Below are positions 54,160-63,693 of a DNA stretch of 64,000 bases, piece after piece. The position numbers were made by a program, and so were the translations under genes. Under the pieces are notes generated by a model. That model did no database searches. It had not been told where the DNA came from and worked only from the letters and a program-made list of their open reading frames with translations. The first letter of the stretch is position 1; each line of letters begins with the position of its first letter. Location: assembly GCA_002753615.1 (NCBI GenBank), contig PEAO01000001.1, positions 28,319 through 92,318 on the forward strand, written 5' to 3'. The stretch is from Magnetococcales bacterium DCbin2. Its GTDB lineage: Bacteria; Pseudomonadota; Magnetococcia; Magnetococcales; UBA8363.

Positions 54160-57100
54160 TCACTGTGCCGTTTTTTTCCCCGCAAGGGTGTCGAGTATCC
54201 GTTCCAGGTGTTGTAGGCGTGCATGGGGGTCTTCCCAGTTGCGCTCTCGAAACGAAAGCAGATTTTTGTCTTGATTAAATAATACCGATCCTCCCCCTTT
54301 CCGAATCATGTCGATCAACACCGGCGGGTGGATGTTGGGTTGCGGGTGAAAGGTGAAAACCGCCCCTTTGGGGCCAGCCTCCAGTTTCAACACCTTCACG
54401 GTAACGCATTTTCTTTTGATGGATACCACCTTCAATAGATTTTCCACCGAGGTGGGGAGGGGACCAAAACGGTCGGTGAACTCCACCTTCATTTCCGCAG
54501 TTTCCTCCGACGATTTTAACTCGGCGACCCGTTTATAGAGTGTCAAACGCAAATTCATGTCGGTGATGTAGGTGTCGGGGATGTTGGTGGACAAACTCAG
54601 GTTGATCATAGGGACGATTTCTTCTTCCGGCATCTCCCCTTGGGCATCCACAACCGTCCCCGCACCAAAGGCTTCCACCGCTTCCTTGAGCATTTGGTTG
54701 TATAATTCAAAGCCTATTTCTTTGATGTGACCCGATTGGGCATCCCCCAAGACGTTGCCAACGCCGCGAATTTCCATATCCTGACTGGCCAACATAAAAC
54801 CCGATCCCAACTCTTCCAACGATTCGATTGCCTCCAACCGTTTTCGGGCATCGGCGGATTGAGCCTGGATGGGGGGGGTGAGCAGATAGGCATAGGCCCG
54901 ATGGCGGGAGCGTCCGACCCGACCCCGTAATTGATGCAGTTGCGCCAGACCAAAATGATCGGCCCGATGAATGATGATGGTATTGGCACTGGGGATATCG
55001 ACCCCGTTTTCAATGATGGTGGTACATAGGAGGACGTTGAACTCCTGGCGATAAAATGAAACCATGATCCGTTCAAGGCGACCTACGGGCATTTGTCCAT
55101 GGGCGATGCCGATTTTGGCTTCTGGGACCAGTTCCAGGAGCCGATGGGACATCCGTTCGATCTCCTGAACCTTGTTGAACACATAAAAAACCTGCCCACC
55201 ACGATAAATTTCTCGAAGAATCGCCTCCCGAATGCGGCTTGGAGAATATTCAATGACAAAGGTTCGTATGGCTAGGCGGTTGGTCGGGGGGGTGGCGATG
55301 ATGGAGATGTCACGGATGCCCGACATGGCCATGTGCAGGGTACGGGGGATCGGGGTTGCGGTCAGGGTGAGAATATCGACATTGGCACGCATTTTTTTGA
55401 TCTGTTCCTTGTGGACGACACCGAAACGTTGTTCCTCATCCACAACCAAAAGTCCAAGATCCTTGAATCCGACATCTTCCTGCAACAGCCGATGGGTGCC
55501 GATGATGATATCGGTTCTCCCTTCGCGGGTTTTTTCGACTAGTTCGGTCAATTGTTTTGCGCTGCGAAACCGCGACATGACCGCGACGTTGACGGGGTAG
55601 GGGGCAAAACGGCGGGAAAAGGTTTCATAATGTTGTTGCGCCAGAATGGTGGTGGGGGCCAGGACCGCCACCTGTTTGCCATCCATGACGCAGCGAAAGG
55701 CGGCCCGTAACGCCACTTCCGTCTTTCCAAACCCCACGTCGCCACAAATCAATCGATCCATGGCGTGGGGGGAGGTCATGTCTGCCAGGACCGCCTCGAT
55801 GGCTTGGGCCTGATCGGGGGTCTCCTCGTAGGGGAACGTGGCACCAAATTCATGGTCGGCGGCATGGGGCGGGGAAAAACGGATCCCCTGAGCGGTTTCC
55901 CGTTTGGCTTGAATGGCCACCAGTTCCGCAGCCATTTCCAAAATTTTCTTTTTGACCTTCTGTCGGGTCTTTTTCCACTTGGTTCCACCCAGTTTATCCA
56001 GGATTACCTCGTCGGAACCGGCATACTTGCTGACCCGATCCAGGTTTTCCACCGGAACATAGAGTTTATCCGAGCCGGCGTAGGTCAGCAGAAGAAAATC
56101 GTTTTGGATTCCTCCCACCGCCAAAGTATGTAGACCGCCAAAACAGCCGATGCCATGATCGGCGTGGACGACAAAACTCCCCTCTTTTAGATTGCGAAAG
56201 GAGGCCAATATCCGGTCAAGATAGTTGGGGTCGGTGTGTTTACGACGGGTGCGGGTTCCCAGGATCGCATCTTCATGGATCACCGTCAGGCCAAGACCGG
56301 AATGGGAAAAACCGTTGGCCAAATCACCGATGACCAATTGGATCACATTGGTTGCGGTCGTCAGTGCCTGATGCCAGCTCAGGGCGGTTTCCGATTTTTG
56401 TCCATGATCGGCCAGTAACTCCCCAACCCGGTCGCGTTGGCCCAGGGAACGGGCGGAAACAATGATACGTTGACGCCGTTTTTTCTCCCCTTTGATGAAG
56501 GCGACGACGCGATCCAAAACCGAATGTCCTGCGGGAACCTCCTCGCTCACCGGATCGAGAAATTCGGGAATGGCTTCAAAACCGAGGGAGCATCCCCCTT
56601 CGGAGGGATGATTGTCGATCCCAACGCTATGAAAACGGTCCAAAGACTCCATGAGTTGGCTGGCAGTCAGATAGAAACGGTCGGAAGGGAGCAACCGTCT
56701 CTGGGCGGCTGGGTCTTCTTGTAACAAAAGCTCTTTTTGGGTCTCTATCTTTTGGGCAAAGGCAACCGCTGCCGGTTCGACATCGGTATCGAGGATAACG
56801 TGACTCCCTTCGGGGAGATAATCGGTCAACAGGTCGGTGGTTTCGTAGAACAGGGGGAGGAATCGTTCCATCCCTTGGAGTTTTGCCCCGGAAGAAATGA
56901 CTTTATAGAGTTCATCCTGGGCCGCTTGGCCTCCGAAAGTTTCGCGGTATTGGGTCCGAAAACAGCGGATGGTCTCCTCGGTCAGGAGGACTTCACTCAT
57001 GGGGAGGGTTTCCAGCCGGGAGGCTCTTTGGGTAGACCTTTGGGTGTGGATGTCAAAATGGCGGATGGTTTCCACTTGGTCGCCGAATAGTTCAATCCGC

Positions 57101-57723
57101 ACCGGTTCTTCATATCCGGGGGGGAACAGGTCGATGATGCCGCCACGAGCGGCGAATTCACCCGGTTCTTCGATCTGGGTGGCGGAGCGATAACCGGAGC
57201 TAATCAAAAATTGTTTGAAGGCGGGTAGATCCATCTGATCCGACTCCCGAATGGCAAAGCCATGAGCCGCCAGGAGGTGCCGGGGGATGAGTCTTTGCAT
57301 CAACGCCATGGGGGTGGTGATGATGATGGCCTGTTTTTGTCCCCGTTCATTTTCGGCACGCACCGCACCCAATCCCAACATTTGGGTCAGACGGTACAGG
57401 GTGGCAATCCGTTCCCCGACAATCGGCCCATAAGGTGATAAGGGTTCAAAGGGCAATATCTCCCAGGAGGGAAACGGGAGAATGGTGGTAGGTTTATGGC
57501 GATCCCCCTGGAATAGCAGGAGTTCTCGGTATATCGCCTCGGCGCGGGCGGTCGTCCCGGTGACGATGACCAAGGGGTCGGCCAACCCCTGTGCCCACTC
57601 TTTGGCAAGCAGACTGAGGGTCGCCCCCGGCAGATCGGTCAGGATGCCATGGGGGCGTCCTTTCCGGTGGGGTAGAGTATCCAAGCGTTGGGCAAACAGG
57701 GTGGCAAGTGGGGTTGCGTCCAT
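54160..57723 (-). CDS. mfd: Transcription-repair coupling factor
   Basis: 1187 aa. Helicase motifs LICGDVGFGKTEVA, LLVVDEEQRFGV, TLTATPIPRTL, RGRVGRS. UvrB-homology N-region and TRG motif region. Confidence 0.95.
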   Translation of the reverse strand: MDATPLATLFAQRLDTLPHRKGRPHGILTDLPGATLSLLAKEWAQGLADPLVIVTGTTARAEAIYRELLLFQGDRHKPTTILPFPSWEILPFEPLSPYGPIVGERIATLYRLTQMLGLGAVRAENERGQKQAIIITTPMALMQRLIPRHLLAAHGFAIRESDQMDLPAFKQFLISSGYRSATQIEEPGEFAARGGIIDLFPPGYEEPVRIELFGDQVETIRHFDIHTQRSTQRASRLETLPMSEVLLTEETIRCFRTQYRETFGGQAAQDELYKVISSGAKLQGMERFLPLFYETTDLLTDYLPEGSHVILDTDVEPAAVAFAQKIETQKELLLQEDPAAQRRLLPSDRFYLTASQLMESLDRFHSVGIDNHPSEGGCSLGFEAIPEFLDPVSEEVPAGHSVLDRVVAFIKGEKKRRQRIIVSARSLGQRDRVGELLADHGQKSETALSWHQALTTATNVIQLVIGDLANGFSHSGLGLTVIHEDAILGTRTRRKHTDPNYLDRILASFRNLKEGSFVVHADHGIGCFGGLHTLAVGGIQNDFLLLTYAGSDKLYVPVENLDRVSKYAGSDEVILDKLGGTKWKKTRQKVKKKILEMAAELVAIQAKRETAQGIRFSPPHAADHEFGATFPYEETPDQAQAIEAVLADMTSPHAMDRLICGDVGFGKTEVALRAAFRCVMDGKQVAVLAPTTILAQQHYETFSRRFAPYPVNVAVMSRFRSAKQLTELVEKTREGRTDIIIGTHRLLQEDVGFKDLGLLVVDEEQRFGVVHKEQIKKMRANVDILTLTATPIPRTLHMAMSGIRDISIIATPPTNRLAIRTFVIEYSPSRIREAILREIYRGGQVFYVFNKVQEIERMSHRLLELVPEAKIGIAHGQMPVGRLERIMVSFYRQEFNVLLCTTIIENGVDIPSANTIIIHRADHFGLAQLHQLRGRVGRSRHRAYAYLLTPPIQAQSADARKRLEAIESLEELGSGFMLASQDMEIRGVGNVLGDAQSGHIKEIGFELYNQMLKEAVEAFGAGTVVDAQGEMPEEEIVPMINLSLSTNIPDTYITDMNLRLTLYKRVAELKSSEETAEMKVEFTDRFGPLPTSVENLLKVVSIKRKCVTVKVLKLEAGPKGAVFTFHPQPNIHPPVLIDMIRKGGGSVLFNQDKNLLSFRERNWEDPHARLQHLERILDTLAGKKTAQ

Positions 57724-58078
57724 AATAGGTTAATGCCAACCACCGTCGTTCTGCCTGAACCACCGATCAACGGGGCCATGGGTTGGAGGGTGACGGCTGA
57801 ATCGAAGATCACTGGTCTGATGGATCCATGGGGGATCGGATCGTCTCATACTATATTCATTATATTTCATAATGTTGTACAGGAAAACGCAGGACTGATT
57901 CCCTGTATAAAACGATCGGGAATTAGCCTTTTGCATGAAAACAGCATGTCAGGTCAACGAGAGGTACTACCGAACATTGCAGCAGCCGCCCGGAATCCCA
58001 GAGTTCAACCATGGCGGGCCACAGGCTACTTGAATTTTGGGATTTAGGCAATGCTATCAATTGAGACGAGTTCCTTTT

Positions 58079-58112
58079 GGGGGGTATAAGCCCCCCCCTA
58101 CGATTTTTTTTT
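58079..58112. terminator. G6-loop-C8 hairpin followed by a T9 run
   Basis: gggggg-tataag-cccccccc then tacg-ttttttttt on the + strand, about 25 nt beyond the stop of the 1290-aa minus-strand gene. The U-tract sits on the + strand, so the direction of action is unclear. Confidence 0.35.
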
Positions 58113-58134
58113 GTCGGATTGCGGTCACGCTACG

Positions 58135-61100
58135 TTATCCTTTTTCCCACCTCTTCATGATCTGTTTGAATTGGGTCAGATCAATGATGGCTCCATCTTC
58201 TTTAGCATAGTTAACATCCTTGAGAAATTCTTTGAGGAACTGACTCATGAACAGATGGCGGCGCTTGGCCAATTTCTGGCTTGCAGGCAGGTTGAGGTGA
58301 TCGGTCAAATTGAGCAACTTTTCATAAAAGTGGGTGATGGCAGAACGGTAACGGTCGAAGCCCTTGCCATAGGGATTTCCCAACTCTTTCAGCGTACGTG
58401 GGGTTTCCTTAAAATTATAAATGCCCCGGTTTTTCCTGAAGGCAAAACAGCGTGCGATGCCAATGGCACCGATCGCATCGATCCGGTCTGCATCCTCCAG
58501 AAGCTTGCATATAGTACGATCAATCACACTTTCCAACTTTGCCCAGCGGTTCTCCTTGTCGGTTTTGTTGACGTAATCTTCAAAAGAGGTACACATCACA
58601 ATTTCTTTAACGCGCTCGATGGTTGCCTGACTCAGGTTCCATGCCTCCATTTCCGGTGTCAGGAACTCAATCACCATCTTGTCACGTTGATCCGCGCTAT
58701 CCAAGGTTATCTTGCTATCCCCGAGATCGTGAAGCAGGCAAGCGGCCTGAAAAACATCAAGATCGACTTCTTTGAACAGAAACCCCTCTTCTTTGGCAAT
58801 GTCTCTCGCCAGATCCCTTACCCGAATGAAGTGGTCGATCGCATGGCTCGGATCGGAAGTTTCTGGAAGAAGGGCCTTTAGTTTCCGCTCAATTTTTTCT
58901 CCCAGGCTCAATTCTTTGGGATTGAAAGTTTTTTCGTTGTAGAGGCATTTCTCGTTGGGACAATTCTGGAGAAAATGATTATTCTTTCCAATACACAGAA
59001 CCTGGGAGAACTTCCGTGACCCATCCCCGACATGAGTGAGGCAGGTACTTTGGGTCATGAGAGACAATGCGCAGGGGCTGGAGAGAAAAACAGTGGGTCT
59101 TTCCCTGCCTGATCGCCACCCGTTGTTTATTTCATCTCCCAGGATCCATTTTTTTATATCGGGTACCCAGTCGAACACATGGGCCACCTCGTTTGTACCG
59201 GTGGGATGTTTCTGGTCACTGTTGTGGGCACTGTAAGTCTCATACTGCCGCATGAAATTGTAGGGACCATCGGCAAGTTTATGAAGATTAACATCTTTTT
59301 TATTATTTAAAGACCAAAGCGCCATCTTGTGAGATATGCTTCGGGTCATGTAAGCGGAGCCGACGACAATCACCTTGCATTGGGCTAACAGCCCAGAGAG
59401 TTCCGTGTCGGTATCGGTTATTCCGGGCAGAAAGGGTTTTACATAGGGGATGACATGCATTCCGTATTCTTGAAGAAGCCCTTCTTCATCCTGATGCTTG
59501 GCAATAGTAGAGAGGTCTTCTTTTAATCTTTCTGCACGCTTCTCTCCCGGTGTACAGGATTCGAGGGTATTGGCATGTTTGACGGTGGAAAGTGAATAGA
59601 AAATCACGATTCTTCCACGTATCATTCTTGTGACGTCGGTTTGACTGTATTGCTTTTGTCCCTCATGTTCCCTGTCGATCAATGTTTTTTCAATGGATGC
59701 CTTTAGCCGTGCAACCGTGTCCAGGGATTCCTTGGTGGCAATCTGGATGATATTTTTTGTCTCATAACGCAAAAAGTGTTCAAGCAGTAGAGACAGGACG
59801 GTCACCGTGGTGTTGAAGTTTAAACCGGCACTCAGAGGATCATTGCTGTTTCCGAAGGAGAAGATAAAATCATCTACCTGCATTTTGTTTCTCAAACTTT
59901 TATACTCTTCAACGAAGACTTTCTTATCCATTTTCTCAGGGGGAATGTGGTCACTAATGCAGTATTGACAGCCCCTTTTGCAGATATCGCCGTAGTTGAT
60001 GAATAGCCGGTGTTCCTGATCGAACGGAGGTTTATAGAAATATTTGTATTTTTCCTTGTGCATCACCTCCAGCGAATTGACGTTTCCTGAAGAGAGGATG
60101 CGGTAGAACTCGTCCTTGTGTTTGCCCTCTGCCGTCCATTCGTGCATGCCCAATTCATCCCGGATGCTCTCTAATTCTATTGGACAGTCCGTGCGTTTGT
60201 CATTCTTTTTTACTTTGTCGAGGTAGACTACCAAACCCGATGGTCGGGCAAGATCGGACATTCGGGAAGCCAAGTTGGCTGCATTTCCCGAAAAGTGGTA
60301 TTCATGTTGCTGTGTGCCTTCGATGGCGCATTCAATCCGTTCCAGCGTACCATAGGCGATTCCGATCCCTACTCCCAGACTTTCTCGCGCCATTTCTCCA
60401 AGAAAACGTCTGGCACCCCGGATCAATTTGGCTAGAACAGGAAGCCAGTCTTTCGGACCATGGTTATGCGGGTCAAAGTACTTGGCCATGATATAACCAT
60501 CACCGGAATAGTTGATATCATCCATATGGTCGGCCAAGTGAATCTGAATCATTTCTTTCAGTTTTGACATGACTCTCTTGGGTCTTTTCTGTTCACCATC
60601 TTGGGTTTCAAGATTGGCCTTCGTCCAACCCCTCAAATCGACACATACCGATATAGCGTCCTTGGTGGTAATATCATCCGGCTTTCCCAAAATCTGATGT
60701 TTTTTGGCAAACTGAGATTCGTATCCATTGATAATTTTACTGGTTGTATCATTCAGTCTTTCCCAATTTCCCGAACCAACAGACGCATTTTTGAAAAATC
60801 TCATTATATGATCAATGTTTTTCTTCGTTGAATCCAAAAGCTCATAACTTCCAAGGAGTCTTGGAAGTTTTTTCTTGATATCTTCTTCCACTTTTGCCCA
60901 GTGGTTCTCATGAAGATCTTCAATAATATCTATGAGAAATGTCTTGAGTTCCGTTTTATAGTCATGGCTGTGTTCGACCGCATTCCTGTATTTCTCAATG
61001 AGTGGAACTATATATGTTTTATAAATAAAATCGACATCAGCTTTATTTTTTGGATCATTTTTTGCCAGTTCTACAAATACTTGGAAAAAATGCACAAGAT

Positions 61101-62007
61101 AATACTCATTCTTATCTTCTCCAAGCAGTTCCAAGCATATTCTAAAGCATTCACCAGCATTCCCTAGACGGTCGTTTCTGTTTTCTCTAACATCATCACT
61201 CAAAAAATAATGAAAGTGTCCTAAACTGAACTGAACCATATAGGTATTAAAATCAGAGGTGGCAAGTTCAAATTCATGTGTGATTTTACCAATAATGTCA
61301 GCTCTGTTGGCTTGATCTTTCATTCCCATGAAATAGTATCGGCGTAGGAATGTTGCATGATGTTTATGCGAAAAATGGAGAATATGTTTCTTTTCTACTT
61401 CTGAAAGTTCGTGACCAAGACCTTCCATATTTAACAAATCATGAAACAAATATCTTGCTCTAATGAAATCACCAGAGTTCTGAGTGGCCACGATTTTGCC
61501 ATCCAGAGATAAGAGATAAAGATAGGGATGTCTCTGTTTGCCCAGGGTTTCCATGATATGATCGAATAGAGAAATAGCCCGGGCCTGATAGCCAAGCTTG
61601 TCCAAAAAACGTCCAACTTCATAGCAGATTGATTCAATGGATTTTTCGATATTATCGCCATATTCTTGTTTTGCTTGATGATACGCTTGATTCCACAATG
61701 AAGGCTCCAGAAGCTTGCCAACAAAACGGTATTCCATTTCTTTGGGATCGCCTCCATTACTACGCGCACATTTCTTAATGCATTCCTCAAGATGGTACCC
61801 ACACTGCCGCCTTAGGGTCTCCAACAGGTGTTCCGTATGAACATTCTCCAGGGGAACCAGCGCGAGATAGGTGATAAATGCCCGTGGCAGATTTTTAAGG
61901 CAATTTAAGCCATGACCGGAGAAGGCTGCGTTTACTTTTTCTCGAATATGTATTAAGTAATTTCCACCAAATTTTTCCCCCATGATTTCGTCTATTCTAA
62001 CATCCAT
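58135..62007 (-). CDS. 1290-aa fusion protein: helical N-domain, class III nucleotidyl cyclase, SplB-like radical SAM domain, Cys-rich linker, HD phosphohydrolase
   Basis: Strong RBS (ggagggg) 4-5 nt upstream of ATG 62007. Domain motifs are listed in the three sub-feature entries. No neighbouring gene on the same strand is close enough to form an operon. Confidence 0.8.
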   Translation of the reverse strand: MDVRIDEIMGEKFGGNYLIHIREKVNAAFSGHGLNCLKNLPRAFITYLALVPLENVHTEHLLETLRRQCGYHLEECIKKCARSNGGDPKEMEYRFVGKLLEPSLWNQAYHQAKQEYGDNIEKSIESICYEVGRFLDKLGYQARAISLFDHIMETLGKQRHPYLYLLSLDGKIVATQNSGDFIRARYLFHDLLNMEGLGHELSEVEKKHILHFSHKHHATFLRRYYFMGMKDQANRADIIGKITHEFELATSDFNTYMVQFSLGHFHYFLSDDVRENRNDRLGNAGECFRICLELLGEDKNEYYLVHFFQVFVELAKNDPKNKADVDFIYKTYIVPLIEKYRNAVEHSHDYKTELKTFLIDIIEDLHENHWAKVEEDIKKKLPRLLGSYELLDSTKKNIDHIMRFFKNASVGSGNWERLNDTTSKIINGYESQFAKKHQILGKPDDITTKDAISVCVDLRGWTKANLETQDGEQKRPKRVMSKLKEMIQIHLADHMDDINYSGDGYIMAKYFDPHNHGPKDWLPVLAKLIRGARRFLGEMARESLGVGIGIAYGTLERIECAIEGTQQHEYHFSGNAANLASRMSDLARPSGLVVYLDKVKKNDKRTDCPIELESIRDELGMHEWTAEGKHKDEFYRILSSGNVNSLEVMHKEKYKYFYKPPFDQEHRLFINYGDICKRGCQYCISDHIPPEKMDKKVFVEEYKSLRNKMQVDDFIFSFGNSNDPLSAGLNFNTTVTVLSLLLEHFLRYETKNIIQIATKESLDTVARLKASIEKTLIDREHEGQKQYSQTDVTRMIRGRIVIFYSLSTVKHANTLESCTPGEKRAERLKEDLSTIAKHQDEEGLLQEYGMHVIPYVKPFLPGITDTDTELSGLLAQCKVIVVGSAYMTRSISHKMALWSLNNKKDVNLHKLADGPYNFMRQYETYSAHNSDQKHPTGTNEVAHVFDWVPDIKKWILGDEINNGWRSGRERPTVFLSSPCALSLMTQSTCLTHVGDGSRKFSQVLCIGKNNHFLQNCPNEKCLYNEKTFNPKELSLGEKIERKLKALLPETSDPSHAIDHFIRVRDLARDIAKEEGFLFKEVDLDVFQAACLLHDLGDSKITLDSADQRDKMVIEFLTPEMEAWNLSQATIERVKEIVMCTSFEDYVNKTDKENRWAKLESVIDRTICKLLEDADRIDAIGAIGIARCFAFRKNRGIYNFKETPRTLKELGNPYGKGFDRYRSAITHFYEKLLNLTDHLNLPASQKLAKRRHLFMSQFLKEFLKDVNYAKEDGAIIDLTQFKQIMKRWEKG
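58408..58860 (-). other. HD-domain phosphohydrolase (YpgQ/YedJ-like; aa ~1050-1200)
   Basis: SHAIDHFIRVRDLARDIA ... AACLLHDLGD ... LEDADRIDAIGAIGIARCF gives the H...HD...D metal-ligand pattern. Confidence 0.75.
59338..60015 (-). other. Radical SAM domain, SplB / COG1533-like (aa ~665-890)
   Basis: FINYGDICKRGCQYCISD contains CX3CX2C (Cys676/680/683; nt ~59959-59982). The following FSFGNSNDPL resembles the GT.TDPY motif of the DNA-repair-photolyase-like radical SAM family. Confidence 0.65.
60208..60660 (-). other. Class III nucleotidyl cyclase homology domain (aa ~450-600)
   Basis: SVCVDLRGWTK (first metal Asp), NYSGDGYIMAKYF (second metal Asp, no Lys at the usual purine-specifying position), GVGIGIAYGT, FSGNAANLASRM (Asn...Arg pair intact). 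Confidence 0.7.
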
Positions 62008-62484
62008 TTTCCCCTCCAGATTTATGTCAGGATTGTAAAATTAAGTAAAGGTTTTAAGCGTCACGCATAACCACAAATACCAAAGGATTGTTGTATACCA
62101 TACTGGCAATGAAATTAACACCGAAAAATATTCCAGAAGAGGAAAAAATTATCAATATTTTTGTATTCCTCCGCAACGATGAGTTGGTTGACCTTCCCCA
62201 CGTGTGACGCATGAGATTTAATATTATTATTTTACGAATGACAAATATATAAATTTTAGGTTTGACAACAATCTTGAGGGCGGAGAGGCAACCAAGACTG
62301 CATGAAATTGGATTTTTTGAACGATTTATATTTTAGTATTGTGCCTGTGCATCGCCAAGGCAAGAAGATCAGGTAGTTTCGCATAAAACATGACAACTGC
62401 GTGTCATTCTGTCAGAATGATGCGAAACTGTTTGCTTTTTGATTGTTTCTTTTAGAAGCCACGCCATTCTTCGGGAGCCAGGTT

Positions 62485-63693
62485 ATGAAACGTCGTGCAT
62501 TCATTCAATCATCCGCTCTGGCGGCCACCGCCATGGTGGTGGGAACCCCGGCTCAGGGGGAGGAATCACCGGTGCGAGCGGACGTTCGCCGCTTTCGTGA
62601 TTTGGGTAAAACCGGAATCGCCATGAGTGACATCTCCTTTGGTGCCGGGAGCGTCCCTTCCGGTTCCCTCATACTGCGTGCCATCGATCGGGGAATCAAC
62701 TATTTTGACACCGCCCCCGATTATGGCCCCAGTGAAGATCGTTTTGGCGAAGTCATGAAACGGATCAAAGATCGGGAAAAGATTAAAATTGCTTCCAAAT
62801 TTTGCCACCCCGTCCCCTACCAGGAGGGTAAAAGTCACCTAGCTCTGGGAACCAGCGTCCATGACTATATTGCCTCTGTGGATAACAGCCTTAAACGGAT
62901 GAGGACCGATTATTTGGATGCCGTTTTTGTACACGCCATCGGGGAAAGGAATGATCTGGAGGGGGAAAAAGGGCGCATGTTGGACGAAAACATGCTGAAC
63001 GCCACAGAAAAACTAAAAAAAGCGGGTAAGGTTCGGCATCTGGCGGTATCCTCTCACGGTCCACACAACATGGAACCCCTCATGGTGGAAGCGGTCAATT
63101 CGGGCCATTTTGATTGGATCATGATTGCGTTCAACTTTATGAAATTTCCCCGTATCCCCGATATTTTGCGCCTGGCCAAACAAAAGGGGGTGGGGGTCAT
63201 CGCCATGAAAACCCTCGCGGGGGCCAAGGAGAGCGGTGCCAAACTGGATGTGGGACAGTTTGAACAGGCGGCCTTGAAATGGGTTTTAAACCATGAAGAA
63301 ATCGCCGGATTGGTGATTACCTTCAAATCGGCCCAGGATTTGGATCTTTACCTGCCCGCTTCTGGACAAACTTTGACCGCCAGGGATCAAAAAGCTCTGG
63401 ATCATTATGCGGCACTCCACGGGGATCAATACTGCCGTACCGGCTGTGGTGATTGCTCTGGCGTGTGTGACCATCAGGTCGATATCGCCACCATCCTGCG
63501 CTATAACATGTATTTTAGCGATTATCGGGATGAAAAACGGGCGATGGAATCCTATGCCAGACTGCCGCAGTCGGCCCGTCCATGTCTGGATTGTCGCACA
63601 CAGGCTTGTGCCGGTCTTTGTCCCCACGGTTTGGATGTGGTGGCGCAACTGCGCCAAGCACATCACCATTTGACGTTGACCGGTGTGGCGTAA
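62485..63693 (+). CDS. Tat-signal aldo/keto reductase with C-terminal Cys-rich (Fe-S-like) extension
   Basis: MKRRAFIQSSALAATAMVVGTPAQG twin-arginine signal with RBS gggag upstream. AKR motifs GINYFDTAPDYG, VFVHAI. C-terminal CRTGCGDCSGVC ... CLDCRTQACAGLCPHG. Confidence 0.8.
   Translation: MKRRAFIQSSALAATAMVVGTPAQGEESPVRADVRRFRDLGKTGIAMSDISFGAGSVPSGSLILRAIDRGINYFDTAPDYGPSEDRFGEVMKRIKDREKIKIASKFCHPVPYQEGKSHLALGTSVHDYIASVDNSLKRMRTDYLDAVFVHAIGERNDLEGEKGRMLDENMLNATEKLKKAGKVRHLAVSSHGPHNMEPLMVEAVNSGHFDWIMIAFNFMKFPRIPDILRLAKQKGVGVIAMKTLAGAKESGAKLDVGQFEQAALKWVLNHEEIAGLVITFKSAQDLDLYLPASGQTLTARDQKALDHYAALHGDQYCRTGCGDCSGVCDHQVDIATILRYNMYFSDYRDEKRAMESYARLPQSARPCLDCRTQACAGLCPHGLDVVAQLRQAHHHLTLTGVA

What the first reader, a model, noticed from the sequence alone, without database searches (positions are those of the whole stretch)
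58135..62007. Orphan AT-rich 1290-aa gene fusing a class III nucleotidyl cyclase, a SplB-like radical SAM domain and an HD phosphohydrolase
Seen: a single long ORF with a strong RBS, flanked by 410-nt and 430-nt AT-rich spacers and visibly lower in GC than mfd next door. The cyclase motifs are intact for catalysis (two Asp, Asn...Arg) but lack the usual purine-specifying Lys. A CX3CX2C motif (ICKRGCQYC) is followed by a GN.NDP motif as in COG1533 radical SAM enzymes. A Cys-rich linker (CALS..C..C..C..C) precedes a complete H...HD...D domain. The ~440-aa helical N-terminus is unassignable. Known: cyclase-based (CBASS, Pycsar) and radical SAM-based (viperin-type) anti-phage systems exist. HD domains hydrolyse (d)NTPs or cyclic nucleotides. 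I know of no described protein combining all three. Inference: it may be a self-contained nucleotide-modifying, signalling or defence enzyme that makes, radically modifies and/or degrades a nucleotide. The composition suggests horizontal acquisition.
Basis: partly seen in the sequence, partly recalled or inferred. Interest (0 to 1): 0.87.

Follow-up and report, generated by a model that had tools for sequence, protein, structure and literature searches.

The report
Mobile cyclase–radical SAM–HD defence-like gene
A 1290-residue protein in a magnetotactic bacterium joins a helical repeat domain, a nucleotide cyclase, a radical SAM enzyme and an HD nucleotide hydrolase; it sits on a 4.6-kb piece of DNA that a sister strain lacks, and it belongs to a very rare, undescribed family whose other members lie next to known anti-phage killer genes, so it is most likely a new kind of nucleotide-based phage defence.

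Summary

Domains, tested with profiles and AlphaFold models:
- TPR-like alpha-solenoid, aa ~18-441.
- Class III nucleotidyl cyclase, aa ~445-649.
- Radical SAM barrel of the COG1533 (PA0069/Rv2578c/SplB) clade, plus an invariant 4-Cys module, aa ~660-1025.
- YpgQ/YedJ-type HD hydrolase, aa ~1047-1270.

It is not an orphan. An exhaustive HMMER search of 1.84 billion representative proteins found 17 distant homologs (29-34 % identity) with the same domain order.

The CX3CX2C triad, the 4-Cys set and the HD ligands are invariant. The cyclase Asp residues are lost in a subclade.

Evidence for a defence role:
- Two homologs sit next to PycTM, the Pycsar effector.
- Others carry TIR, trypsin or metallophosphoesterase modules, or lie among STAND, CHAT and restriction-modification genes.
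- Two show domain fission.

In this genome (Magnetococcales), the gene and its AT-rich flanks (57794-62375) are missing from a ~93 %-identical strain, at a variable spot beside mfd.

Best reading: a horizontally acquired, single-gene, Pycsar-related conflict system with a nucleotide-directed radical SAM-HD core. The chemistry is unknown. I found no description of this architecture in the literature searched.

The parts
57794..62375 (.). 4.58-kb indel cassette: the gene plus 341 nt downstream and 368 nt upstream. A ~93 %-identical strain lacks it. Boundaries are good to about +/-15 nt.
   Evidence: L024 1-605 aligns to window 62981-62376, and L024 715-5575 aligns to window 57792-52926; about 108 unrelated nt lie between them in L024. 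Cassette GC is 0.432, below the minimum (0.442) of 267 other 4.58-kb windows.
58135..62007 (-). 1290-aa ORF, stop codon included.
   Evidence: The identical protein occurs in six contigs, including GCA_003483605.1, GCA_015234035.1, JGI 3300003895, SRR6486482 and ERR711863.
62011..62017 (-). Shine-Dalgarno sequence GGAGGGG, 3 nt before the ATG.
   Evidence: Read directly from the sequence.
60685..61956 (-). TPR-like all-alpha solenoid, aa ~18-441, about 20 helices. Proposed sensor/regulatory module. It is the least conserved part of the protein and has the lowest GC (0.38).
   Evidence: AlphaFold model pLDDT 83, all-helical. Pfam TPR families hit several homologs. Composition.
60061..60675 (-). 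Class III nucleotidyl cyclase domain, aa ~445-649, with D457, D503, N578 and R582 intact. The specificity positions are Asn499 and His571 instead of Lys and Asp.
   Evidence: Pfam Guanylate_cyc E 2e-4 on the isolated segment. Family profile against PDB, E 1e-8. Foldseek 127 hits at E<1e-3, TM(target) 0.55-0.71. Residue table.
59083..60030 (-). Radical SAM barrel of the COG1533 (PA0069/Rv2578c/SplB) clade, aa ~660-975. Includes the GGE-like G719..N722-D723-P724 motif and the invariant T758-K759, S805 and K857-P-F-L-P-G862.
   Evidence: Model pLDDT 85, pTM 0.89. The Foldseek top 7 are all radical SAM enzymes. hhalign to stand-alone relatives gives 98.8 % and 97.5 % probability, and those relatives hit PA0069 at 1e-13 and Rv2578c at 5e-10.
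59959..59982 (-). CX3CX(aromatic)C cluster motif: C676, C680, Y682, C683.
   Evidence: Invariant in 18/18 homologs at about 30 % identity.
58933..59082 (-). Cys-rich module, aa 976-1025. C979, C1005, C1016 and C1021 are invariant; C989 is variable. Candidate auxiliary Fe-S (Twitch-like) or Zn site.
   Evidence: Metal identity is inferred, not tested.
58198..58869 (-). YpgQ/YedJ-type HD phosphohydrolase, aa ~1047-1270. Ligands H1055/H1059, H1093-D1094 and D1172.
   Evidence: PDB sequence hits 2qgs 1e-22, 3dto 3e-21 and 5dqv (YpgQ) 1e-14. Pfam HD is above its threshold. Ligands are invariant in 15/15 HD-bearing homologs.
58079..58098 (.). GC-rich hairpin (GGGGGG-N8-CCCCCC), 37-56 nt past the stop codon. 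The T-run lies on the + strand only. Possible terminator or insulator inside the cassette.
   Evidence: It is a consensus scan hit, not evidence of function.

Best explanation
The gene is a horizontally acquired, single-gene member of a rare, undescribed family of anti-phage (biological-conflict) proteins. The family is related in logic to Pycsar.

Proposed working model:
1. The N-terminal TPR-like solenoid is the sensor/regulator. It holds the enzyme off until it meets an invader-derived cue. (Inferred.)
2. On activation, the class III cyclase domain, acting as a dimer, turns an NTP into a cyclic mononucleotide. Its base specificity is non-canonical: there is no Lys/Asp pair and no Glu/Cys pair. 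The domain and its catalytic residues are shown; activity and product are inferred.
3. In some family members this signal goes to an adjacent PycTM membrane effector or to fused TIR, protease or phosphoesterase modules. The adjacency and the fusions are shown; the signalling is inferred.
4. The family-constant catalytic core is the COG1533-type radical SAM domain with a 4-Cys auxiliary site, followed by a YpgQ-type HD (d)NTP pyrophosphohydrolase. I propose this pair acts on nucleotides or nucleic acid, either making a modified or poisoned nucleotide or depleting the pool. In this model it is the built-in effector in the window's copy, which has no PycTM nearby. (Inferred.)

The cassette arrived as a 4.58-kb insertion between the AKR operon and mfd in a Magnetococcales genome. 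(Shown.)
For: Architecture is real and conserved:
- 17 homologs align across aa 1-1030.
- The domain order is the same in all of them.
- Two independent domain fissions fall exactly at module borders. The HD module is a separate overlapping gene in P0003/L007, and the TPR module is a separate overlapping gene in P0014/L008.

Domain identities.

Selection on catalysis:
- The radical SAM Cys triad, the 4-Cys set and the HD ligands are invariant.
- Cyclase D457 and D503 are kept in 15/18 and 13/18 members.
- The window's copy has all of them.

Defence signature:
- A PycTM gene (Pfam E 6e-16 and 1e-13) lies directly next to P0005 (8-nt overlap, same strand) and P0004 (divergent, 137 nt away).
- P0006 carries a TIR_2 insert (E 1e-16). 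It sits among DUF4062-STAND, CHAT-TPR, SLOG/LSDAT and RyR genes.
- P0008 has a trypsin fusion with a Trypco1 gene upstream. NACHT and a restriction-modification pair are nearby.
- P0013, P0016 and L020 carry an N-terminal calcineurin-like phosphoesterase. PADLOC's CBASS-effector and PDC-S60 models hit 2 members (not identified in the output), which I attribute to this module.
- L020 is followed by a tyrosine recombinase gene.

Mobility:
- An empty site exists in a ~93 %-identical strain.
- In relatives, the same mfd flanks carry PCMT plus a NotI restriction-modification pair, or a Fic gene.
- The cassette has the lowest GC in the window.
- The family is sporadic across Magnetococcales, Nitrospirota and others, and no two contexts are alike.

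Nucleotide focus of all three enzymes:
- The cyclase uses NTPs.
- YpgQ, the only characterised enzyme of that HD clade, hydrolyses (d)NTPs (PMC8177086).
- A stand-alone relative of the radical SAM module lies between a dTMP kinase and an OPRT-like PRTase.
Against: - There is no experiment of any kind.
- The window's own copy has no PycTM or other recognisable receptor within 64 kb. Its immediate neighbours (AKR operon, mfd) are housekeeping genes.
- PADLOC PycC models hit the window protein only at E 0.02. The one PycC structure in the PDB hit list scores E 0.34, against 1e-8 for ordinary adenylyl cyclases. Membership of the Pycsar cyclase clade is therefore not shown.
- Single-sequence Pfam scores for the cyclase and radical SAM domains are below the gathering thresholds.
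- TM-scores of the radical SAM model to solved enzymes are low, about 0.34.
- One homolog (P0003) lies among cell-wall genes.
- Only about 8 family loci have readable flanks, so the association counts are small.
- The roles I assign to the radical SAM and HD modules are analogy-based.
Confidence: 0.6

Rival explanations
1. A physiological enzyme for signalling or nucleotide-pool/DNA repair. On this reading, a TPR-regulated cyclase is coupled to a SplB-like radical SAM repair enzyme and a YpgQ-like pool-sanitising HD hydrolase. The position beside mfd (transcription-coupled repair) would then be meaningful.
For: The only characterised COG1533 enzyme, SplB, repairs DNA. This is established knowledge; the link of this domain to that clade comes. 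YpgQ-type HD enzymes hydrolyse (d)NTPs. mfd is adjacent. P0003 lies among housekeeping genes.
Against: - A ~93 %-identical strain lacks the gene altogether.
- No other homolog is next to mfd.
- The family has only 18 clusters among 1.84 billion representatives.
- PycTM, TIR, trypsin and Trypco1 associations are hallmarks of conflict systems, not of repair.
- SplB itself is not detectably similar by sequence profile or by fold search.
Confidence: 0.1
2. A stand-alone biosynthetic enzyme that makes a modified nucleoside, nucleotide, cofactor or secondary metabolite, with no role in immunity.
For: Radical SAM plus phosphohydrolase combinations occur in nucleoside natural-product and cofactor pathways (established knowledge). 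A stand-alone relative sits with a dTMP kinase and a PRTase, which looks like a small nucleotide pathway.
Against: - No biosynthetic cluster, transporter or resistance gene travels with it. The cassette carries a single gene.
- The TPR sensor, the PycTM neighbours and the swapping of effector-type domains fit immunity better.
- The kinase-radical SAM-PRTase arrangement itself parallels the validated Ophion defence system.
Confidence: 0.1
3. A selfish or toxic element, or a decaying remnant. On this reading the fusion is tolerated cargo whose cyclase or radical SAM domains no longer work, and only the HD domain is functional.
For: The cyclase catalytic Asp residues are lost in 3-5 homologs. Public annotation recognises only the HD domain.
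Against: - The window's copy keeps every catalytic residue.
- The radical SAM and 4-Cys ligands are invariant at about 30 % identity across 18 lineages, which requires purifying selection.
- The intact 1290-codon frame is identical in six contigs.
Confidence: 0.05

Closest known systems
Pycsar (PycC cyclase plus PycTM/PycTIR effector) and its recently proposed relatives (Pucsar; 'immune clades' of cNMP cyclases)
   Same: It has a class III cyclase domain with intact catalytic residues. Two family members have a bona fide PycTM gene directly adjacent, and one carries a TIR domain. It is sporadic, mobile and defence-island associated. TPR fusions to immune cyclases are mentioned in the Pucsar preprint.
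   Different: The cyclase is embedded in a 1200-1560-aa protein together with a radical SAM domain, a 4-Cys module and an HD hydrolase. Neither survey I read mentions these. The window's copy has no PycTM or PycTIR. PycC profiles match only weakly, and ordinary adenylyl cyclases match better than the solved uridylate cyclase. In a subclade the cyclase is catalytically dead while radical SAM and HD stay intact.
COG1533 radical SAM proteins (PA0069 family, Rv2578c family, spore photoproduct lyase SplB)
   Same: It has the CX3CX(aromatic)C motif, a GGE-like motif and a ...KPFLPGITD... strand. Stand-alone relatives (L010, L011) link the domain to PA0069 and Rv2578c at E 1e-13 to 1e-8, and to SplB at 1.5e-3.
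   Different: The window domain itself scores only 4e-5 at best against these models, and only in 4 of 18 members. SplB is absent from both the sequence-profile and fold-search hit lists. The invariant C-terminal 4-Cys module and the fusion partners are specific to this family.
Prokaryotic viperins (pVips) and Ophion (radical SAM OpnA + PHP OpnB + PRTase OpnC)
   Same: The concept is the same: a radical SAM enzyme in an anti-phage system, teamed with nucleotide-metabolising or phosphoesterase partners and proposed to make transcription- or replication-poisoning nucleotides.
   Different: It belongs to a different radical SAM clade, with no viperin hit in any search. Here the partners are fused in one chain and include a cyclase and a TPR sensor. 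The relation of OpnA to this clade was not testable because no sequence was available.
YpgQ/YedJ-type HD phosphohydrolases
   Same: The full H...HD...D ligand set is present. It gives 1e-22 to 1e-8 matches to eight solved members, including YpgQ. YpgQ is a Mn-dependent (d)NTP pyrophosphohydrolase.
   Different: Those proteins are about 210-240-aa stand-alone enzymes. Here the domain is the C-terminal module of a giant fusion, or a translationally coupled separate gene in P0003. The NCBIfam equivalog cut-off is not reached: 47.5 against 286 bits.
Cas10 of type III CRISPR (HD nuclease plus cyclase-type Palm domain)
   Same: One polypeptide combines an HD metal-dependent phosphoesterase with a nucleotide cyclase that produces a second messenger for accessory effectors. 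This is a functional analogy from established knowledge.
   Different: The cyclase fold family differs (class III, not the GGDEF-like Cas10 Palm). There is no CRISPR context. The HD domain is C-terminal and YpgQ-like. The radical SAM module has no counterpart in Cas10.

Membership tests
Class III nucleotidyl cyclase (PF00211) | Cyclase catalytic fold | tested here: met
   Foldseek gave 127 PDB hits at E<1e-3, and the 50 best listed are all class III AC/GC, with TM(target) 0.55-0.71. The family profile against PDB gives E 1e-8.
Class III nucleotidyl cyclase (PF00211) | Two metal-binding Asp residues and the Asn...Arg transition-state pair | tested here: met
   D457, D503, N578 and R582 are present in the window protein. 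They are kept in 15, 13, 11 and 13(+3 Lys) of 18 homologs respectively.
Class III nucleotidyl cyclase (PF00211) | Canonical purine-specifying pair (Lys/Asp for ATP, Glu/Cys for GTP) | tested here: not met
   Position 499 is Asn (never Lys in the family). Position 571 is His (mostly Tyr, never Asp).
Class III nucleotidyl cyclase (PF00211) | Pfam gathering score | tested here: not met
   The window protein scores 18.1-21.4 bits against a threshold of 21.9. Six homologs match, best E 5e-9.
Radical SAM superfamily | CX3CX(aromatic)C motif for the SAM-binding 4Fe-4S cluster | tested here: met
   C676, C680, Y682 and C683 are invariant in 18/18.
Radical SAM superfamily | Partial or full TIM-barrel fold | tested here: inconclusive
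   The model has pLDDT 85 and alternating beta/alpha elements. The top 7 Foldseek hits are radical SAM enzymes at probability 0.94-0.99, but E is only 2e-3 and TM about 0.34, and generic TIM barrels follow.
Radical SAM superfamily | Pfam gathering score | tested here: not met
   18.6-20.8 bits against a threshold of 29.5.
Radical SAM superfamily | Fe-S cluster binding and reductive SAM cleavage | not testable with these tools
   Needs anaerobic reconstitution, EPR and a 5'-deoxyadenosine assay.
COG1533 / PA0069 / Rv2578c / SplB clade | Sequence membership in the clade's models | tested here: inconclusive
   The direct test is weak: 4/18 members, best E 4e-5. The transitive test is strong: hhalign gives 98.8 % and 97.5 % to stand-alone proteins that hit PA0069 at 1e-13 and Rv2578c at 5e-10. 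No curated cut-off is reached.
Spore photoproduct lyase proper | Similarity to SplB and its catalytic Cys/Tyr relay | tested here: not met
   SplB is absent from the profile-versus-PDB list and from the Foldseek top 50. Only the intermediate L011 hits TIGR04070, at 1.5e-3.
Pycsar | Cyclase gene next to a cNMP-activated effector (PycTM or CNBD-TIR) | tested here: not met
   For the window copy, tblastn with two PycTM proteins found nothing in 64 kb. The feature is met for homologs P0005 and P0004.
Pycsar | Cyclase belongs to the PycC clade | tested here: inconclusive
   PADLOC PycC scores E 0.02 for the window protein and 3e-4 at best in 4 homologs. The solved uridylate cyclase 8jsz scores E 0.34, against 1e-8 for adenylyl cyclases. 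No phylogeny was possible.
Pycsar | Synthesis of cCMP/cUMP and phage protection | not testable with these tools
   Needs LC-MS of reaction products and plaque assays.
YpgQ/YedJ HD phosphohydrolases | H...HD...D metal ligands and overall sequence similarity | tested here: met
   H1059 (and H1055), H1093-D1094 and D1172 are present. PDB hits range from 1e-22 to 3e-8 and include YpgQ and YedJ. Pfam HD scores 27-32 bits against a threshold of 22.
YpgQ/YedJ HD phosphohydrolases | NCBIfam equivalog cut-off (PRK10119) | tested here: not met
   47.5 bits against a cut-off of 286.
Viperin / pVip | Sequence or structural similarity to viperin-type radical SAM enzymes | tested here: not met
   No viperin family or structure appears.

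The most novel reading that the evidence does not exclude
One polypeptide senses infection through its TPR solenoid and then uses a cyclase, a COG1533 radical SAM enzyme and an HD hydrolase in sequence. The result would be a radical-modified nucleotide: either a new class of (cyclic) nucleotide messenger read by PycTM-type effectors, or a chain-terminating or pool-poisoning antiviral nucleotide made by a non-viperin radical SAM clade. This would be the first assigned function for the large PA0069/Rv2578c group outside spore photoproduct repair. It would also be a new branch of nucleotide-based immunity.
Probability: 0.22. Interest if true: 0.9.

Novelty: new variant of a known kind. Interest (0 to 1): 0.74.

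Why it matters
Cyclase-based systems (Pycsar, CBASS, type III CRISPR) and radical SAM-based systems (viperins, Ophion) are so far treated as separate branches of bacterial immunity. This family joins the two physically, and adds an HD nucleotide hydrolase and a repeat sensor.

- It offers a compact single-gene model for asking how sensing, signalling and nucleotide chemistry are coupled.
- It gives a functional handle on the COG1533 radical SAM proteins. They are widespread, but their only characterised member is spore photoproduct lyase.
- The subclade with a dead cyclase but intact radical SAM and HD suggests which module is the indispensable effector. The PycTM-linked members give a ready read-out for the cyclase product.
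- The clean presence/absence polymorphism beside mfd marks a previously unnoted variable hotspot in Magnetococcales genomes.

Tried and rejected
- Full-length word-index search of 5.8 billion proteins found only the protein itself. This misled towards 'orphan' until the exhaustive HMMER search.
- The same word-index tool run with the radical SAM alignment A2 returned nothing, not even the family. I treat this as a tool null, not as evidence.
- The family radical SAM profile against PDB sequences gave only noise-level hits around the Cys triad: RimO and PFL-AE at E ~0.3, with T-cell receptor chains scoring above them.
- Viral contigs gave no relative, and JGI metagenome contigs gave only two. 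Annotated plasmids and phages gave no tblastn match.
- No tRNA is present in the window, and there are no long flanking repeats or inverted repeats at the cassette ends.
- No Rfam family matches the cassette. The 368-nt leader folds no better than shuffled sequence, z = +0.49, so there is no sign of a riboswitch.
- The 52-aa hydrophobic ORF in the leader has no Pfam match.
- I tried to read nucleotide specificity from the published PycC structures. The specificity residues differ between clades and could not be mapped.
- I considered and rejected four readings:
  - a functional link to mfd, because no other homolog is next to mfd and an empty site exists;
  - viperin membership, because no similarity was found;
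  - SplB orthology, because no direct similarity was found;
  - assembly chimera, because the sequence is identical in six contigs and 17 homologs share the domain order.

Full report
**1. The observation**

The minus strand carries a single 1290-codon ORF at 58135-62007. GGAGGGG lies three bases before the ATG. The ORF is separated from mfd by 411 nt and from the aldo-keto reductase (AKR) ORF by 435 nt.

The gene's GC is 0.435 (GC3 0.471). mfd is at 0.545 (0.616), and six other genes in the window are at 0.50-0.53.

- Cyclase: D457, D503, N578...R582.
- Radical SAM: C676-x3-C680-x2-C683, with Tyr682 before the last Cys, and G719-N-S-N-D-P724.
- Linker Cys: 979, 989, 1005, 1016, 1021.
- HD: H1055/H1059, H1093-D1094, D1172.

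**2. Not an orphan**

The word-index search of 5.8 billion proteins found only the protein itself. That identical protein occurs in six contigs, including two NCBI MAGs, one JGI metagenome and two SRA assemblies, always in the same context.

The exhaustive HMMER scan of 1.84 billion cluster representatives, queried with aa 1-1035, gave a different answer. It found 17 homologs at E 1e-110 to 6e-31 and 29-34 % identity, most aligned over nearly the whole query. The family is therefore real but extremely rare. It has no relatives in 2.9 M viral contigs, only two in the JGI contig set, and none in annotated plasmids or phages.

**3. Domain identities**

*HD domain.* The window protein matches eight solved YpgQ/YedJ-type HD proteins at E 1e-22 to 3e-8. 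It passes the Pfam HD threshold. YpgQ is the only biochemically characterised member of that clade. It is a Mn-dependent (d)NTP pyrophosphohydrolase using H29/H58/D59/D124 (PMC8177086). The equivalent ligands are invariant in all 15 HD-bearing family members.

*Cyclase domain.*
- The single sequence is just under the Pfam threshold.
- Six homologs match, with E down to 5e-9.
- The family profile hits about 30 distinct class III cyclase structures, with E down to 1e-8.
- The AlphaFold model built on the family alignment (pLDDT 83) gives 127 Foldseek hits at E<1e-3. The 50 best listed are all class III cyclases, with target TM 0.55-0.71.
- The two positions that specify purines in adenylyl and guanylyl cyclases are Asn499 and His571. 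They are never Lys or Asp anywhere in the family. The product therefore cannot be predicted.

*Radical SAM domain.*
- Sequence evidence for the window domain alone is weak: Pfam 18.6-20.8 bits against 29.5, and a family profile against PDB that reaches only noise level.
- However, the Cys triad with its aromatic residue is invariant in 18/18 sequences.
- The model is confident (pLDDT 85, pTM 0.89), with alternating strands and helices.
- The seven best structural matches are all radical SAM enzymes (DesII, biotin synthase; probability 0.94-0.99). TM-scores are low, about 0.34.

*Radical SAM sub-family.* The genome scan recovered two stand-alone proteins, L010 (283 aa) and L011 (329 aa), which share the family's strand motifs. 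The family profile aligns to them at 98.8 % (E 5e-17) and 97.5 % (E 6e-12) over about 245 columns. These proteins in turn hit the PA0069 family at 1e-13, Rv2578c at 5e-10 and spore photoproduct lyase at 1.5e-3. Orthology to SplB does not.

*Cys-rich module.* The four Cys after the barrel (979, 1005, 1016, 1021) are invariant, while C989 is not. An auxiliary Fe-S or Zn site is likely, but this is an inference.

*N-terminus.* This is no longer unassignable. It is a roughly 20-helix alpha-solenoid, and Pfam TPR families hit several homologs.

**4. Evidence that the modules work together**

The domain order is constant across the family. In two lineages the protein is split exactly at module borders:
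- In P0003 (a Nitrospirota MAG), the HD module is a separate 263-aa gene overlapping the upstream gene by 4 nt.
- In P0014 (Candidatus Magnetomicrobium), the TPR module is a separate 327-aa gene overlapping the downstream one.

Three to five members have lost the cyclase metal-binding Asp residues but keep every radical SAM, 4-Cys and HD ligand. I therefore regard the radical SAM-HD pair as the indispensable core. The cyclase looks like a signalling add-on that can decay.

**5. Evidence for a conflict/defence role**

- P0005 is preceded by a 164-aa PycTM gene that overlaps it by 8 nt. P0004 has a 157-aa PycTM gene 137 nt away on the other strand. I rescanned both, and they score 59 and 52 bits against a Pfam threshold of 27. 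PycTM is the membrane effector of Pycsar.
- P0006 carries a TIR_2 insert (E 1e-16). It lies among DUF4062-STAND, RyR, DprA/SLOG, CHAT-TPR and LSDAT genes.
- P0008 has an N-terminal trypsin domain with a Trypco1 gene just upstream. A NACHT protein and a restriction-modification pair are nearby.
- P0013, P0016 and L020 carry an N-terminal calcineurin-like phosphoesterase. PADLOC's CBASS-effector and PDC-S60 models hit 2 members (not identified in the output), which I attribute to this module.
- L020 is followed by a tyrosine recombinase fragment.
- P0014 is followed by a HicA toxin gene and an SMC-like ATPase/phosphoesterase pair.
- P0003 is the exception: its neighbours are cell-wall genes.

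No two family loci share a context.

**6. The window's own locus**

Mfd's nearest relatives are all Magnetococcales. That is the host lineage, and the 'Nitrospirae' label on one assembly is probably a binning error.

*Empty site.* A strain with 98 % identical Mfd and ~93 % identical DNA (L024) has the AKR flank and the mfd flank about 108 nt apart. The window has 4.58 kb between the same two points. Homology breaks at ~62376 and resumes at ~57793.

*A variable spot.* A more distant relative (L023, Mfd 76 %) has the same AKR-DUF6599-DUF362 operon next to mfd, but with a small PCMT gene in the slot and a NotI restriction-modification pair on the other side of mfd. Another relative (L022) has a Fic gene there.

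*Composition.* The cassette has the lowest GC of any 4.58-kb stretch in the window: 0.432, against a minimum of 0.442 and a mean of 0.504 elsewhere.

Horizontal acquisition of a one-gene cassette at a variable hotspot is therefore shown directly, not merely suggested by composition.

*What the cassette lacks.*
- No PycTM-like sequence anywhere in the 64 kb.
- No tRNA.
- No convincing terminal repeats.
- No Rfam element, and no unusually structured leader.

**7. How it most likely works**

*Shown:* the four modules and their conserved catalytic residues; their coupling; the mobile, sporadic distribution; and the links to Pycsar-type and other effectors.

*Inferred:*
- The TPR solenoid senses an invader cue. 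It is the least conserved part of the protein and has the lowest GC, which fits a fast-evolving sensor.
- The cyclase dimer makes a cyclic mononucleotide of non-canonical specificity. This activates PycTM where one is present.
- The radical SAM domain with its auxiliary site, and the (d)NTP-type HD hydrolase, act on nucleotides or nucleic acid. In the window's copy they would be the resident effector.

The nucleotide focus rests on three points:
- the cyclase's substrate;
- YpgQ's known activity;
- the operon of a stand-alone relative, which runs dTMP kinase, then radical SAM, then an OPRT-like PRTase. That operon parallels the experimentally validated Ophion system, made of a radical SAM enzyme, a PHP phosphoesterase and a PRTase.

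I put 0.6 on the defence-system reading as a whole. I put much less, about 0.2, on any specific chemistry.

**8. Comparison with what is known**

The family works like a Pycsar-type system in some members. The window's copy, however, fails the defining Pycsar features that I could test: there is no adjacent effector, PycC profile matches are only weak, and ordinary adenylyl cyclases match better than the solved uridylate cyclase.

- It is not a viperin.
- It is not SplB.
- It is only a domain-level relative of YpgQ.

I checked three sources for this architecture:
- the 2020 survey of NTP-dependent conflict systems (PMC7159879);
- the 2026 survey of immune cNMP cyclases;
- full-text searches for the domain combination.

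None describes a cyclase-radical SAM-HD protein. I therefore rate it a new variant of a known kind (cyclase-based nucleotide immunity). There is a real chance that the radical SAM-HD chemistry makes it something categorically new.

**9. Limits**

- Only about eight family loci have readable flanks.
- All function is inferred.
- The radical SAM structural matches are weak in TM terms.
- The literature search covers open-access papers and preprints only.

Noticed in passing
window 54160-57723 (mfd); L001/L002: The same contig sequence is labelled 'Nitrospirae bacterium' in GCA_003483605.1 and 'Magnetococcales bacterium' in GCA_015234035.1. All close Mfd homologs (52-98 % identity) are Magnetococcales, so the Nitrospirae label looks like a binning or taxonomy error.
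   Followed up: partly
L023 13774-15908; L022 2632-3471; window 57724-62442: Both flanks of mfd are variable in Magnetococcales. One relative has a DNA methylase plus NotI restriction pair just after mfd and a PCMT gene before it. Another has a Fic gene before it. The window has the 4.58-kb cassette. This looks like an integration hotspot for defence or accessory genes.
   Followed up: partly
window 60688-62007 versus 58135-60687: Composition is mosaic inside the gene. The TPR-like N-terminal 440 codons have GC 0.38 / GC3 0.35, while the cyclase, radical SAM and HD parts have GC 0.45-0.48 / GC3 0.52-0.56, close to host genes. This could reflect a faster-evolving or separately acquired sensor module.
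   Followed up: no
window 62054-62212 (-): A 52-aa ORF with a hydrophobic stretch (ILIIFSSSGIFFGVNFIASMVY) lies in the cassette leader, 46 nt upstream of the main ORF. JGI and Logan annotations call it as a gene. It has no Pfam match, and it may be an artefact of the AT-rich sequence.
   Followed up: partly
L010 8964-11280: A Myxococcales MAG has a tight three-gene operon: dTMP kinase, then a stand-alone COG1533 radical SAM related to the window's domain, then an OPRT-like PRTase. The layout resembles the validated Ophion defence system (radical SAM + PHP + PRTase) and may be an undescribed nucleotide-modifying system.
   Followed up: partly
L019 5769-6440: A 223-aa gene starts 15 nt after homolog P0004. 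It has a sub-threshold 4Fe-4S double-cluster (Fer4_16) match at E 1e-4. It could be a dedicated electron donor for the radical SAM domain.
   Followed up: no
window ~62364-62371 and ~57805-57812: The octamer TGATCTTC occurs a few bases inside each end of the indel cassette, in the same orientation. It could be a remnant of the insertion mechanism or chance (roughly 1-2 % expectation by my estimate).
   Followed up: no
window 62443-63693 (+): The neighbouring aldo-keto reductase has a twin-arginine-type signal (MKRRAFIQSSALAATAMVVG) and a C-terminal Cys-rich tail (CRTGCGDCSGVC...CLDC...C...CP). It heads a conserved AKR-DUF6599-DUF362-ferredoxin operon of unknown function, which is also present in relatives.
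   Followed up: no
L016 14924-16925: Two further stand-alone radical SAM genes (one with Fer4_12) lie just downstream of the trypsin-fused homolog P0008, in the same orientation. Their relation to the system is unknown.
   Followed up: no
window 58079-58098: A perfect G6/C6-8 hairpin lies 37 nt after the stop codon. Its T-run is on the opposite (+) strand, although no + strand gene ends there. It may act as a bidirectional terminator or insulator between the cassette gene and mfd.
   Followed up: no
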